Source: an uncultured Pelagibacteraceae bacterium
GTDB lineage: Bacteria; Pseudomonadota; Alphaproteobacteria; Pelagibacterales; Pelagibacteraceae
Length of the DNA stretch: 64,000 nt
Assembly: GCA_902536005.1 (NCBI GenBank)
Contig: CACAVT010000001.1
Location: 7 to 64,006, forward strand
Direction: 5' to 3'
Part shown: in pieces, positions 20,541 through 24,011 of the stretch
Position numbering within the stretch: the first letter of the stretch is position 1
Layout: every line of letters starts with the position of its first letter
Program-made: the position numbers and the translations under genes
Notes under the pieces: model-generated
What the model was told of the DNA's origin: nothing
What the model saw: only the letters and a program-made list of their open reading frames with translations
Databases searched by the model: none

Positions 20541-22271
20541 TTAATAAAGGTTTTCTAGCTGATTTTTATATTTTTCTGTAACTTTTTTTCTTTTTACTTT
20601 CATTGTTGGTGTCATTAAACCATTTTCAATAGAAAAATTTTCATCTATTAATTGAATTTTTTTTATCTTTTCTAATAAAGTTAATTTTTTATTTATTTTT
20701 TCAATTACTTTATTTATTTTTTCTTTTTCATTTAAAAAATCTTTATTAGGAACAATTAAAGCAACTAAGTAATTTTTTTTATCACCATAAACCATGCATT
20801 GATCTATCTCGGGCTCATTTGTAATCATATTTTCAATTTTGGCTGGTGAAATATTATCTCCTCCAGCACTTACTATGATATCTTTTTTTCTATCAGTTAT
20901 TTTTAAATAGCCATCATTTGGATCTATCTCTCCAATATCGCCTGTATGAAGCCATCCATTTATAATTACTTTCTCAGTTTCTTCTTTTTTATTCCAATAT
21001 CCTAACATTACATTTTCGCCTTTAACTAATATTTCTCCATCTTCTGCAATTTTAACTTCATTTCCTTTAAATGGAGGTCCTACAGTTTCTACTTTAATTT
21101 TATGTATTGGATTGCAACTTACTACTGGTGATGTTTCTGTTAAGCCGTATCCCTGAAGTGTCGGTAATCCTATAGCATTTAAAAATTCACCTATTTCTTT
21201 ATCTAAAGCACCACCACCTGAAACGAAAGCTTTCAAATTCCCACCAAACTGTTTTTTAATTTTTTTTCTAACTAATTTATCAACTACAAAATTAAGTAAT
21301 TTTTCAGAAAAAGTCATATTTTGATTTAAAAGTTTTTTTCTTCCCAAACGAATTGTTGCATCAATTAATTTTGCTTTGAAACCTGTCTGTTTTTTTAAAT
21401 TCATGTTTATTTTATTGTAAAGGTTTTGGTAGAACCTAGGGACAGCTGCCATAATTGTAGGCTTTGCTTCAGATATATTTTCTAGAAGTTTTTCAATTTT
21501 TTCAGCATAGAATACTCTAGCTCCTACTGCTATCTGTACAAATTGAAGACAGTGCTCATAAGAATGAGAAAGCGGAAGCCAAGTTAAAAATACTGGTCTT
21601 GAATTAAATAATGGTTTTGTAATTTCACACGATCCCACAACATTATTCAAAATTCCACCATGACTTAAGATTACTCCCTTAGGATTACCACCAGTACCAG
21701 AAGTATAAATAATACATGCAGGAGAATTTCTTTTTAATTTATTATTTTCAATTTTATCGTCTACTAATAAATTATTCTTTAAAATAGAATTATAATCTAA
21801 ATATTTTTCTTTGTTATTTAAACTTAAATTATTTGTTACCTTAGCTATTTCATCTAAAGTTATAACTTTTTTAATAAAATCTTTTTCATTAATTATATTA
21901 TTTAATTTTCTTAACATTTCATTATTTGAAACTATAACTAATCTTGGTTCACAATCTTCTATTAAATACTTATAATCATCTTCTATATAAGTTGTATATG
22001 CTGGAACTGTAATTCCACCAGCTAACATTATAGCTAAATCAGAAACAAACCACTCAGGTCTATTCTCCGAAACTAAAAGACATCTATCACCTTCTTTTAT
22101 ATTTTCTTTAATAACTTTTGATAATTTTAAAATATTCTTTTCAGTTTGTTCCCATGTGTATGTTTTTTTATTTCTTGGGTTTAGCCATTCTAAAAAAATA
22201 TCTTTTTTATTTTGTTTATTTGCTTGATTAGCAAATAATTGGATTAAATTATTTAAATTATCTAAATTCAT
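20541..22271 (-). CDS. Long-chain fatty acid--CoA ligase (FadD-like)
   Basis: YTSGTGGNPKG AMP-binding motif, GYGLTETSP, GWLHTGDIG. Confidence 0.92.
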   Translation of the reverse strand: MNLDNLNNLIQLFANQANKQNKKDIFLEWLNPRNKKTYTWEQTEKNILKLSKVIKENIKEGDRCLLVSENRPEWFVSDLAIMLAGGITVPAYTTYIEDDYKYLIEDCEPRLVIVSNNEMLRKLNNIINEKDFIKKVITLDEIAKVTNNLSLNNKEKYLDYNSILKNNLLVDDKIENNKLKRNSPACIIYTSGTGGNPKGVILSHGGILNNVVGSCEITKPLFNSRPVFLTWLPLSHSYEHCLQFVQIAVGARVFYAEKIEKLLENISEAKPTIMAAVPRFYQNLYNKINMNLKKQTGFKAKLIDATIRLGRKKLLNQNMTFSEKLLNFVVDKLVRKKIKKQFGGNLKAFVSGGGALDKEIGEFLNAIGLPTLQGYGLTETSPVVSCNPIHKIKVETVGPPFKGNEVKIAEDGEILVKGENVMLGYWNKKEETEKVIINGWLHTGDIGEIDPNDGYLKITDRKKDIIVSAGGDNISPAKIENMITNEPEIDQCMVYGDKKNYLVALIVPNKDFLNEKEKINKVIEKINKKLTLLEKIKKIQLIDENFSIENGLMTPTMKVKRKKVTEKYKNQLENLY

Positions 22272-22278
22272 AGTTTCT

Positions 22279-22332
22279 TGGTGGGCGAAGAGAGAATCGA
22301 ACTCTCACTTATTGCGAAACACGATTTTGAGT
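22279..22332 (-). pseudogene. 3' half of the disrupted host tRNA-Leu(CAA)
   Basis: Minus strand ACTCAAAA-TCGTG-TTTCGCAATAAGT-GAGAG-TTCGATT-CTCTC-TTCGCCC-ACCA; similarity stops at the anticodon loop. Confidence 0.9.
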
Positions 22333-22387
22333 ACTGTAAGTCAGTCAGAACCTTTGCGTTTACTTGTTTCATTTCACTAACTTTTTT

Positions 22388-22409
22388 TGTGTTTGAGTTG
22401 TGTTTGAGT
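22388..22409 (+). repeat. Tandem 11-bp repeat TGTGTTTGAGT x2 (putative integrase arm-type sites, left end)
   Basis: Two perfect copies starting 55 bp inside the left core. Confidence 0.8.
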
Positions 22410-22441
22410 AATTTACAATTTTAAAAATAAAGAATCTATTA

Positions 22442-23068
22442 TTATTTGATACAGTGAAATGCTAATGCTTTCAGTTCTCCATTTTCTTCAATGAATCTCT
22501 CTTTTTCTTCAACTTCACCAAATATTGAAATACCCGAGTCACCAAATTCACATTCTCTTATATTTTTAAATCCACTTATTTTTAGTTCATAATGTAATGA
22601 TTTATTATCAAACATCCATTTGTGTCTACTCCCCCCAAAATAAAATCTAAGTTTTCTGAAAAAATTATAATTTTCATTCCTGTTTACACAACCCAAACTT
22701 TCCATGAATAAATCAGCATCTTTATATTTATTATATCTTAAAATTCTTGATTCTAATGAAGGAACAACAATTCTAAATACTCCACCTGGTTTAAGCATTT
22801 TATATATATTTTTAAGCATTTTTTTTCCGTCAACCAGGGTAACATGTTCCAAAACATGACTACAAAAAATATTATCTGCTTCATTCTCTTTACAAAGACT
22901 TTTTTTAACAATATTTCCATATTTAATATTTTTAGGAAACTTTTTATCATTTAAATTTATTATTAAATTTAATAAAGGGATTTGATCTATTAAAGCAATT
23001 GGACTGCTATCATAATTTAACCAACTTTTTCCAATTTTAAAACCACATCCTATATGATAATTTTTCAT
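22442..23068 (-). CDS. Class I SAM-dependent methyltransferase (type 11-like), island cargo
   Basis: HIGCG motif I-like segment, SHVLEHV, LKPGGVFRIVVP. Confidence 0.85.
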   Translation of the reverse strand: MKNYHIGCGFKIGKSWLNYDSSPIALIDQIPLLNLIINLNDKKFPKNIKYGNIVKKSLCKENEADNIFCSHVLEHVTLVDGKKMLKNIYKMLKPGGVFRIVVPSLESRILRYNKYKDADLFMESLGCVNRNENYNFFRKLRFYFGGSRHKWMFDNKSLHYELKISGFKNIRECEFGDSGISIFGEVEEKERFIEENGELKALAFHCIK

Positions 23069-23094
23069 TTTTTTATTTTCATTCTTTTTTAGTG

Positions 23095-23181
23095 TGGTAG
23101 CGCCAGAGAGACTCGAACTCTCACGTGATTGCTCACAACGGATTTTGAGTCCGTCTTGTCTACCAGTTCCAACATAGCGCC
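23095..23181 (-). tRNA. tRNA-Leu(CAA), complete, island-borne
   Basis: 87 nt: acceptor GGCGCTA/TGGCGCT, anticodon arm ACGGA-CTCAAAA-TCCGT, long variable arm GTGA-GCAA-TCAC, T arm GAGAG-TTCGAGT-CTCTC, ACCA end. Confidence 0.95.
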
Positions 23182-23193
23182 ATTTTTTTCAAA

Positions 23194-23250
23194 ACTCTAA
23201 CACAAATCAATACCCGAGTTAATCACTTTGTGTTGGACTTGTGTTTGAGT
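23194..23250. repeat. Right-end arm-type repeats: inverted copy (23194-23204) plus tandem TGTGTTGGACT-TGTGTTTGAGT (23229-23250)
   Basis: Same 11-mer as at 22388-22409; the tandem pair ends 55 bp before the right core. Confidence 0.78.
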
Positions 23251-23305
23251 GTTAAATAATCAGTTTTGTAAATTAAATCAATGAGAATAAAAATAAATTA
23301 GAAGG

Positions 23306-23344
23306 TTTTGAGTCGTGCGCGTCTACCAGTTCCGCCATTCTCCC
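23306..23344 (-). pseudogene. 5' half of the disrupted host tRNA-Leu(CAA)
   Basis: Minus strand GGGAGAATGGCGGAACTGGTAGACGCG-CACGA-CTCAAAA; CACGA pairs with TCGTG of the 3' half near 22320. Confidence 0.9.
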
Positions 23345-23405: not shown

Positions 23406-24011
23406 ATGTTTCAAACACTTTACAAAAAATGTTTAGACTTAGCTGCCCATAAAAGTTCAAATTTTTATTTAGGGCTTGTATCTTTTATAGAAAGTTCTTT
23501 TTTCCCTATACCTCCAGATGCAATGATAATTCCAATGGTAATTGCTAAAAAAAAGGAATATTTTAAAATATTTTTAATAGCATCGATATTTTCAGTTCTT
23601 GGAGGAATTTTCGGATATTTGATAGGTTATTTATTTTTTGATTTAGCAATGTATGTAATCGAATTTTATGGTTATCAAGATAAAGTTGAAAATTTGAAAT
23701 TGAGTATGTCACAAGGGAGTGGATTCCTCGCATGGCTGAGTATTCTTTTTTTAGCAGGCTTTACTCCATTGCCCTATAAAGCCTTTACGATTTCAAGTGG
23801 TTTAATTGGTTTTAACCTTCCTGTTTTTATAATTGTTAGCTTAATTTCAAGAAGCCTGAGATTCTTTATAGTTTCCTATTTGTCTTATAAATTTGGAGAA
23901 TTATTTACAGAGTACATGGAAAAACATGGATCAAAATGGTTTACCATAATTGGAATTATTATAGTTATAATATTTATTATTATTTATTTATTTTTAAAAT
24001 TTAATGGTTGA
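23406..24011 (+). CDS. YqaA/DedA (SNARE-associated) membrane protein
   Basis: SFIESSFFPIPPD and GFTPLPYK motifs. Confidence 0.9.
   Translation: MFQTLYKKCLDLAAHKSSNFYLGLVSFIESSFFPIPPDAMIIPMVIAKKKEYFKIFLIASIFSVLGGIFGYLIGYLFFDLAMYVIEFYGYQDKVENLKLSMSQGSGFLAWLSILFLAGFTPLPYKAFTISSGLIGFNLPVFIIVSLISRSLRFFIVSYLSYKFGELFTEYMEKHGSKWFTIIGIIIVIIFIIIYLFLKFNG

What the first reader, a model, noticed from the sequence alone, without database searches (positions are those of the whole stretch)
22279..23344. tRNA-Leu(CAA) split in its anticodon loop by a mini-island that replaces rather than repairs the gene
Seen: the 5' half (23306-23344) and 3' half (22279-22332) of one tRNA-Leu(CAA) lie 981 bp apart. Each keeps ACTCAAAA, which contains the 7-nt anticodon loop. 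Joining them restores the CACGA/TCGTG anticodon stem and a full cloverleaf. Between them is a different complete tRNA-Leu(CAA) and a methyltransferase, but no integrase. Known: tyrosine integrases often cross over at the 7-bp anticodon loop, but the element normally supplies the displaced tRNA part so the target gene is rebuilt at one junction. Temperate pelagiphages integrate at host tRNA genes. Inference: a 'break-and-replace' integration strategy in which the host gene is destroyed and complemented by an element-borne isoacceptor. Partial deletion of the element would then be costly, giving addiction-like stabilisation of the cargo. What remains is a minimal satellite or prophage remnant.
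Basis: partly seen in the sequence, partly recalled or inferred. Interest (0 to 1): 0.9.

Follow-up and report, generated by a model that had tools for sequence, protein, structure and literature searches.

The report
Integrase-less cassette replaces SAR11 leucine tRNA
A 1-kb piece of foreign DNA has cut this marine SAR11-type bacterium's leucine tRNA gene in two and carries a spare tRNA plus one methyltransferase gene; the break-and-replace trick is already published for phages, but here it is likely the integrase-less dwarf of a family of non-phage islands whose single cargo gene varies between copies.

Summary
Observation confirmed. An 8-bp repeat (anticodon loop plus one base) bounds a 981-bp insertion in tRNA-Leu(CAA). 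The gene is intact at this site in 19 of 20 relatives' loci, and independent metagenomes carry the junctions.

Break-and-replace is known: pelagiphages HTVC019P/025P/119P/200P, and 'tRNA-dependent lysogeny'. This scan also noted it on other DNA (16 findings).

What this adds: the insert is likely not a prophage remnant but a dwarf of a SAR11 island family built att-arms-integrase-spare tRNA-cargo-arms. The family integrase was not found in two phage collections. In the dwarf the integrase gene is cleanly missing, arm-type repeats remain at both ends, and the tRNA starts where the integrase began. Four more complete dwarfs (968-1,249 bp) share the identical tRNA. The five carry four different methyltransferases, so the cargo is swapped, not locked in.

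Addiction-like stabilisation of cargo is not supported. Both host halves here carry a pair-breaking change, so excision would likely restore a weakened tRNA. Movement in trans is plausible but unproven.

The parts
22279..23344 (-). Whole split locus: host tRNA-Leu(CAA) halves with the 981-bp integrase-less element between them
22279..22332 (-). 3' half of the host tRNA-Leu(CAA) (gene positions 32-85, with CCA); carries a private G53T change (window 22311) that breaks a variable-arm pair
22325..22332 (.). Left copy of the 8-bp att core (anticodon loop plus one base)
   Evidence: same core in all related elements
22388..22409 (.). Two tandem 11-bp repeats (TGTGTTTGAGT), putative arm-type integrase sites, left end
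   Evidence: 4 of the 7 genome-wide motif hits lie in this element
22442..23068 (-). Cargo gene: 208-aa class I SAM-dependent methyltransferase (PF13489, PF08241), substrate unknown
   Evidence: 73% DNA-identical copy outside any such element in G212
23095..23181 (-). Replacement tRNA-Leu(CAA), 87 nt with encoded CCA; identical in five dwarfs, one base from that of integrase-bearing L064; the only CAA tRNA found in this 64%-complete genome
23182..23193 (-). Place where the ~1.25-kb integrase gene begins in parent elements (ATG at -112 to -144 from the core); here the tRNA starts at -124
23194..23204 (-). Inverted copy of the arm repeat (-112 from the core), same position as in integrase-bearing relatives
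23229..23250 (.). Two tandem 11-bp arm-type repeats (-77, -66 from the core), right end
23306..23313 (.). Right copy of the 8-bp att core
23306..23344 (-). 5' half of the host tRNA-Leu(CAA) (positions 1-39); carries a private C4A change (window 23341) that breaks an acceptor-stem pair
20541..22271 (-). Host flank: long-chain acyl-CoA synthetase (fadD-like)
23406..24011 (+). Host flank: YqaA/VTT-domain membrane protein

Best explanation
The host tRNA-Leu(CAA) gene is split at its anticodon loop by a 981-bp element that carries a spare tRNA-Leu(CAA) and one methyltransferase, and this element is likely the non-autonomous dwarf of a SAR11 tyrosine-integrase island family. Shown: parents have the layout host 5' half | 8-bp core, arm repeats, ~420-aa tyrosine integrase, complete foreign tRNA-Leu(CAA), cargo, arm repeats, core | host 3' half. 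The dwarf keeps cores, arms and tRNA but lacks exactly the integrase ORF. Inferred: the integrase crossed over in the 7-nt loop and the spare tRNA took over UUG decoding. The integrase gene was lost once, and the slot between the tRNA 3' end and the left arms has since been refilled with different methyltransferases, likely by recombination between the conserved flanks. Spare tRNA and cargo are likely read from the host tRNA promoter, since they lie on its strand. Between hosts the dwarf likely moves when a related island supplies integrase in trans. In this genome the idle halves have started to decay, so excision would give back a weakened tRNA.
For: Empty site in 19 of 20 relatives' loci and dominant in metagenomes (joint 22324-23306, depth 3186 in X2 and 2614 in X8, against about 5-12 over most of the methyltransferase). 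Junction scans gave 65 metagenome and 28 GTDB loci. Of these, 16 low-GC loci have a full-length integrase next to the 5' half, and 15 of the 16 have a different complete tRNA-Leu(CAA) right behind it; 5 of 7 tested hit PF00589. L128 is a complete 5,080-bp parent. Arms sit at -112/-77/-66 in both parents and dwarfs, and the dwarf tRNA begins at -123/-124, where the integrase ATG lies in parents. Five complete dwarfs (981, 968, 1,058, 1,102, 1,249 bp) share the tRNA and 91-98% of the right arm region. They carry four methyltransferase types that are at most 39% alike over short stretches. Window versus L053: 955/960 inside, but 47/60 in the left host flank. C4A and G53T occur in none of 27 intact-copy hits, and cloverleaf energy drops from -26.8 to -21.0 kcal/mol.
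Against: No circle or attP joint was seen in 8 runs laid (contigs only). No family integrase was found in this genome (64% complete), and only 2 of 401 genus genomes have one, so helpers are rare. Host flanks of short metagenome contigs can be mis-joined across the conserved tRNA halves, and the right flanks are 88-93% alike, so 'different hosts' rests on one 60-bp flank per contig. All five dwarfs have at least one change in the halves, which fits sitting still; but about a quarter of intact genes also differ from the consensus (about 51 of 199, my reading of E-value classes). Promoter matches are at chance level (9 found, 7.1 expected). The two private changes could be amplification or sequencing errors.
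Confidence: 0.7

Rival explanations
1. An immobile fossil: one old integration lost its integrase, and the filled allele now spreads and swaps cargo only by homologous recombination among SAR11 lineages; the arms are leftovers.
For: Every complete dwarf has changes in the host halves, whereas L128 and L137 have none. Helpers are rare (2 of 401). No attP joint was seen. An Arctic Pelagibacter study favours homologous replacement for variable single genes (passages).
Against: Arm repeats are kept at both ends, at parent spacing, in all five dwarfs although the left spacer has diverged (73-76% in three of them). Identity falls from 99.5% inside to 78% just outside the left tRNA half. This rival differs from the best explanation only on mobility.
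Confidence: 0.2
2. One reading: remnant of a temperate pelagiphage or phage satellite whose spare tRNA makes the host addicted to the cargo.
For: Pelagiphages HTVC019P, 025P, 119P and 200P split host tRNAs and carry a spare. UUG is 2,846 of 24,046 Leu codons here, and 70 of 72 near-complete genus genomes match the CAA gene, so losing the spare would likely cost fitness.
Against: No match of the family integrase in 50,697 phage records or IMG/VR, and no junction, arm or tRNA match in IMG/VR (exact patterns, so limited). The complete parent L128 has a resolvase and small genes, with no phage gene recognised among the four of its proteins scanned. Cargo differs among dwarfs. leuX is deletable in Salmonella.
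Confidence: 0.08
3. Assembly or amplification chimera.
For: The genome is fragmentary (61 contigs, 64% complete), and no laid contig spans the whole stretch.
Against: Junction-bridging contigs in separate studies, and four whole dwarfs in JGI contigs.
Confidence: 0.02

Closest known systems
tRNA-dependent lysogeny of actinobacteriophages (Fionnbharth, Cluster L; Guerrero-Bustamante and Hatfull 2024, PMC10865867; abstract and Discussion read)
   Same: Tyrosine integrase family, short (~10 bp) core in a tRNA gene, no rebuilt tRNA at either junction, element-borne tRNA of the same anticodon, paired arm-type sites flanking the core.
   Different: Here the carrier is not a recognisable phage, the window copy has no integrase, it is 1 kb with one cargo gene, and essentiality of the host tRNA is untested (UUG may be wobble-read).
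HTVC019Pvirus pelagiphages HTVC019P, HTVC025P, HTVC119P, HTVC200P (10.1101/410191; section 11 and passages read; supplements closed)
   Same: SAR11 host; host tRNA cut in the middle and presumed replaced by a phage tRNA; repair and replace types coexist.
   Different: Their targets are tRNA-Cys, tRNA-Leu(TAG), tRNA-Leu(TAA) and tRNA-Arg, not Leu(CAA). They are full phages. The present integrase has no tblastn match in INPHARED.
CIME, cis-mobilizable elements (definition in PMC5704250; passages read)
   Same: [quoted passage not shown]
   Different: CIMEs are described as decay products mobilised in tandem with an incoming ICE or IME. Here the loss is a clean removal of one ORF shared by five copies, and the element must keep a spare tRNA.
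ICEMh1/ICEPmu1 of Pasteurellaceae (PMC6861422; passages read)
   Same: Target is the anticodon loop of the tRNA-Leu for UUG, with an 11-13 bp direct repeat.
   Different: Large conjugative elements; the paper describes one full and one partial tRNA at the ends rather than two halves plus an internal foreign tRNA.
Tycheposons and cryptic elements of Prochlorococcus (10.1101/2020.12.28.424599; passages read)
   Same: Small tRNA-targeting tyrosine-integrase cargo elements in a streamlined marine bacterium, rare and transient in populations.
   Different: They are flanked by ~40-nt partial tRNA repeats, target other tRNAs, and often carry replication modules; the passages read do not describe replacement tRNAs.

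Membership tests
tRNA-dependent lysogeny | Short common core overlapping a host tRNA, so that no functional tRNA is rebuilt at attL or attR | tested here: met
   8-bp core; ARAGORN finds no tRNA at either junction
tRNA-dependent lysogeny | [quoted passage not shown] | tested here: met
   tRNA-Leu(CAA) at 23095-23181
tRNA-dependent lysogeny | Element-encoded tyrosine integrase | tested here: not met
   None in the window element or elsewhere in the held genome; present in parents
tRNA-dependent lysogeny | Carrier is a temperate phage | tested here: not met
   Family integrase not found in INPHARED or IMG/VR; complete parent L128 is 5 kb
tRNA-dependent lysogeny | The disrupted host tRNA is essential, so the spare is required | not testable with these tools
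   Single CAA gene, kept in 70 of 72 near-complete genomes; but a UAA tRNA is present and leuX is deletable in Salmonella
CIME (cis-mobilizable element) | Integration and transfer genes lost, attL and attR retained | tested here: met
   Cores and arm repeats at both ends, no integrase
CIME (cis-mobilizable element) | Mobilised by a related element integrated in tandem | tested here: inconclusive
   No tandem with an integrase-bearing element seen among the five complete dwarfs; mobility not testable
Tycheposon | About 40-nt partial-tRNA repeats flanking the element | tested here: not met
   Shared core is 8 bp
Tycheposon | Hallmark integrase clades and replication module | not tested
   No tycheposon profiles available; no replication gene in the window element

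The most novel reading that the evidence does not exclude
SAR11, said to be almost free of mobile elements, harbours a family of ~1-kb, still mobile, non-autonomous site-specific cassettes. Each borrows an integrase in trans, pays for its seat in the tRNA-Leu(CAA) gene with a spare tRNA, puts itself under the host tRNA promoter, and delivers one interchangeable methyltransferase that varies the cell surface or a metabolite.
Probability: 0.35. Interest if true: 0.65.

Novelty: new variant of a known kind. Interest (0 to 1): 0.42.

Why it matters
The family matters modestly. It gives a concrete, tiny and testable route by which single accessory genes enter and are exchanged in SAR11 genomes, where recent papers find almost no canonical mobile elements. 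It extends tRNA replacement from phages to non-phage islands and their dwarfs. Such insertions are invisible to island finders that need an integrase and an intact tRNA plus fragment. The decay of the idle halves shows how a host can come to depend on a foreign tRNA.

Tried and rejected
Phage source: blastn of the element against INPHARED gave only tRNA-length matches among the 30 of 104 records listed. IMG/VR scans with the methyltransferase, an arm-core-arm pattern, the element tRNA, the junction, one integrase and an integrase alignment all gave nothing; exact-pattern scans are insensitive, so this is 'not found', not 'absent'. Host origin of the spare tRNA: best match in 400 genus genomes was 83%, so rejected. 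The 87-nt host allele in G017, G022 and others is a native type, not the element's tRNA. GC content does not set the insert apart (27.6% against 29.3%). Promoter and terminator scan was at chance level. Expression: two metatranscriptome contigs cover parts of the methyltransferase at depth 2-3; DNA carry-over is not excluded, so not used. Genomes with two hits or weak hits: I opened 12 of the 18 two-hit relatives and 3 weak single hits. The second or weak hits were tRNA-Leu(TAG) in 13, two full CAA copies in G258, and a true split in G260. Methyltransferase substrate: NCBIfam gave nothing above cut-off except FkbM for L109; the O-chain paper PMC11898729 has no methyltransferase mention in its main text, so a surface-glycan role is recalled inference only. 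Earlier-finding look-ups by place and by sequence were empty.

Full report
OBSERVATION. On the minus strand the window reads: 5' half of a tRNA-Leu(CAA) (23344-23306), 124 bp, a complete different tRNA-Leu(CAA) (23181-23095), a 208-aa class I SAM methyltransferase (23068-22442), about 110 bp, and the 3' half (22332-22279). The 8-mer covering the anticodon loop is present at both junctions, 981 bp apart. Removing the insert in silico gives an 85-nt tRNA-Leu(CAA) with one acceptor mismatch. The spare is the only CAA tRNA among 23 tRNAs in this 64%-complete genome, which also has Leu(TAA) and Leu(TAG). That the host is SAR11 is inferred from named Pelagibacter records with the same tRNA, flanks and gene order.

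EMPTY SITE AND REALITY. In 40 relatives the two flanks abut with an 8-bp overlap wherever both match. Of 20 loci examined, 19 carry an unbroken gene (14 of the 85-nt type, 12 of them identical; 5 of an 87-nt type). In the genus sample 316 of 401 genomes match the 85-nt gene, 148 of the 150 listed rows at 100%. Contigs from 2018 salt-marsh runs (possibly one campaign) and a 2025 marine study bridge the left junction (X1, X8) and the right (X11, narrowly). The empty joint has depth 2,600-3,200 and the methyltransferase mostly 5-12. Summed depth is no share of cells, but the filled allele is clearly rare.

THE FAMILY. A pattern for the host 5' half preceded by a non-native base found 65 metagenome loci, 28 GTDB loci and no viral contig. 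Some are unrelated intact tRNAs or truncated contigs; all 93 were classified.

Parents. Sixteen low-GC loci (some are duplicates, e.g. L065/L087 and L070/L095) have a 411-436-aa ORF starting 112-202 bp inside the junction. Five of 7 tested hit PF00589, and the alignment keeps catalytic-type R, K, R and Y columns (assignment recalled from the tyrosine recombinase motif). In 15 of the 16 a complete foreign tRNA-Leu(CAA) follows the integrase; L120 instead rebuilds the host gene at the far end. L128 is a complete 5,080-bp example with a resolvase and small cargo. L064 carries a tRNA one base from ours. L115 has the most similar arm region by eye. The same integrase-plus-tRNA module occurs in 10 high-GC loci, the named ones being Alphaproteobacteria such as Sphingomonas and Bradyrhizobium. 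G260 is split by an 11.6-kb element with another integrase candidate and a reversed spare tRNA. Only 2 of 401 genus genomes have the family integrase, and this genome has none.

THE DWARFS. L052, L053, L075 and L109 match the window's layout. They have the identical 87-nt tRNA, arm repeats at -112 (inverted), -77 and -66, and two more repeats about 63-85 bp inside the left core, with lengths of 1,058, 968, 1,249 and 1,102 bp. The tRNA starts at -123/-124, where parents have the integrase ATG, and four of five read ATG across the tRNA's first base. This suggests one clean deletion of the integrase ORF (inferred). Sequence diverges right after the tRNA's CCA and rejoins near the left arms. Each dwarf holds one gene, always a methyltransferase: the window's type (also L053, 97.6% identical), two other class I types, and an FkbM type. 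Further cargo variants are hinted at by joints from the left arms to the tRNA end in three runs. Integrase-less elements with the same arms that rebuild the host tRNA also exist (L086, L103), as does an integrase-less replacement element of another arm type in a complete Pelagibacter genome (L137).

HOW IT LIKELY WORKS. Integration at the anticodon loop by a lambda-like integrase with arm sites follows from established knowledge and from PMC10865867 (Discussion); it was not tested here. The spare tRNA supplies UUG decoding (11.8% of Leu codons). tRNA and cargo lie on the strand of the host tRNA promoter, so promoter capture is likely but unshown (one search is at chance level). For movement in trans: arms are kept, and window and L053 are 99.5% alike inside but 78% in the 60-bp left flank. 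Against it: no circle was seen, helpers are rare, and short contigs may be mis-joined at tRNA halves.

DECAY OF THE HALVES. The window's halves carry C4A and G53T, both pair-breaking, seen in none of 27 intact-copy hits (19 identical, 6 A7G, 1 G56A, 1 C50T; some loci repeat a genome). They lower the cloverleaf from -26.8 to -21.0 kcal/mol and change the predicted minimum-energy fold. All five dwarfs have at least one change in the halves, one of which (C50T) is also a natural allele. This fits relaxed selection, but the numbers are small and about a quarter of intact genes differ from the consensus too.

ADDICTION. Deleting the methyltransferase alone would leave the tRNA, and the cargo is in fact variable, so the tRNA does not stabilise cargo. 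leuX (CAA) is deletable in Salmonella (passages), though the near-universal retention in this genus (70 of 72 near-complete genomes) suggests a real cost.

WHAT IS KNOWN. The pelagiphage preprint (section 11 read) reports HTVC019P, 025P, 119P and 200P splitting host tRNA-Cys or tRNA-Leu without repair and presumably using their own tRNA. PMC10865867 (abstract and Discussion read) names and proves the phenomenon. CIME names integrase-less elements with both att sites. ICEMh1 targets the same loop of the UUG tRNA. Seven literature searches and passages of four SAR11 papers showed no description of this SAR11 Leu(CAA) family or of such methyltransferase dwarfs. The library lacks most subscription papers, I did not open supplements, and bioRxiv supplements are closed, so it may be catalogued elsewhere. 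This scan has 16 earlier notes of split tRNA-Leu with a spare in at least 14 other genomes, including integrase-less ones (unchecked AI notes, seen after my reading was formed).

VERDICT. Real feature, known principle, new small variant: a non-autonomous, methyltransferase-carrying dwarf of a non-phage SAR11 island family. Interest 0.42.

Noticed in passing
L071, L073, L081, L094, L097, L100, L101, L111, L113, L125, L126, L130, L136, L138, L139, L143: Sixteen high-GC loci (named ones include Nitrobacter, Consotaella, Bradyrhizobiaceae) have the host 5' half followed after about 157 bp by a complete foreign tRNA-Leu(CAA), with no family integrase and no 3' half in the DNA held. This looks like a second, independent loss of the integrase at the same place, on larger islands.
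   Followed up: partly
L137 (complete Pelagibacter genome), 2,059-bp element: Integrase-less replacement element of another arm type, with a resolvase fragment running into the core, a 297-aa cargo gene with no Pfam hit (its start resembles a sulfotransferase motif, recalled) and the spare tRNA on the opposite strand.
   Followed up: partly
L086, L103 (also L069, L084, L089): Integrase-less elements with the same 11-bp arms; L086 and L103 rebuild the host tRNA by supplying a 5' half, so repair and replace designs share one arm type and one site.
   Followed up: partly
L174 (G260:C1:3515-15221): 11.6-kb element splitting tRNA-Leu(CAA), with a 484-aa ORF next to the 5' half that hits neither my integrase profile nor NCBIfam (same N-terminus as an ORF in L088), and a reversed spare tRNA.
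   Followed up: partly
L054, L079, L091, L108: A 556-559-aa ORF sits next to the tRNA-Leu(CAA) 5' half in place of the 420-aa integrase; possibly a third recombinase family at this site.
   Followed up: no
L148, L152 (G258:C13): Two full 87-nt tRNA-Leu(CAA) copies in inverted orientation 22.5 kb apart on one contig; could be an assembly chimera or a duplication.
   Followed up: no
L120: 6.4-kb repair-type island with the family integrase carries a 1,122-aa nuclease-helicase (Cas4-like, RNase H, AAA) and a NUMOD3 protein, possibly defence cargo.
   Followed up: no
L065, L087, L105: Cargo next to integrase and spare tRNA includes an AT3-SGNH acyltransferase and a GT4 glycosyltransferase, typical surface-glycan modifiers.
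   Followed up: no
L005, L018, L019, L020, L021: The genus has two native tRNA-Leu(CAA) types (85 and 87 nt) at the same fadD-yqaA site; both are targeted by the integrase family.
   Followed up: partly
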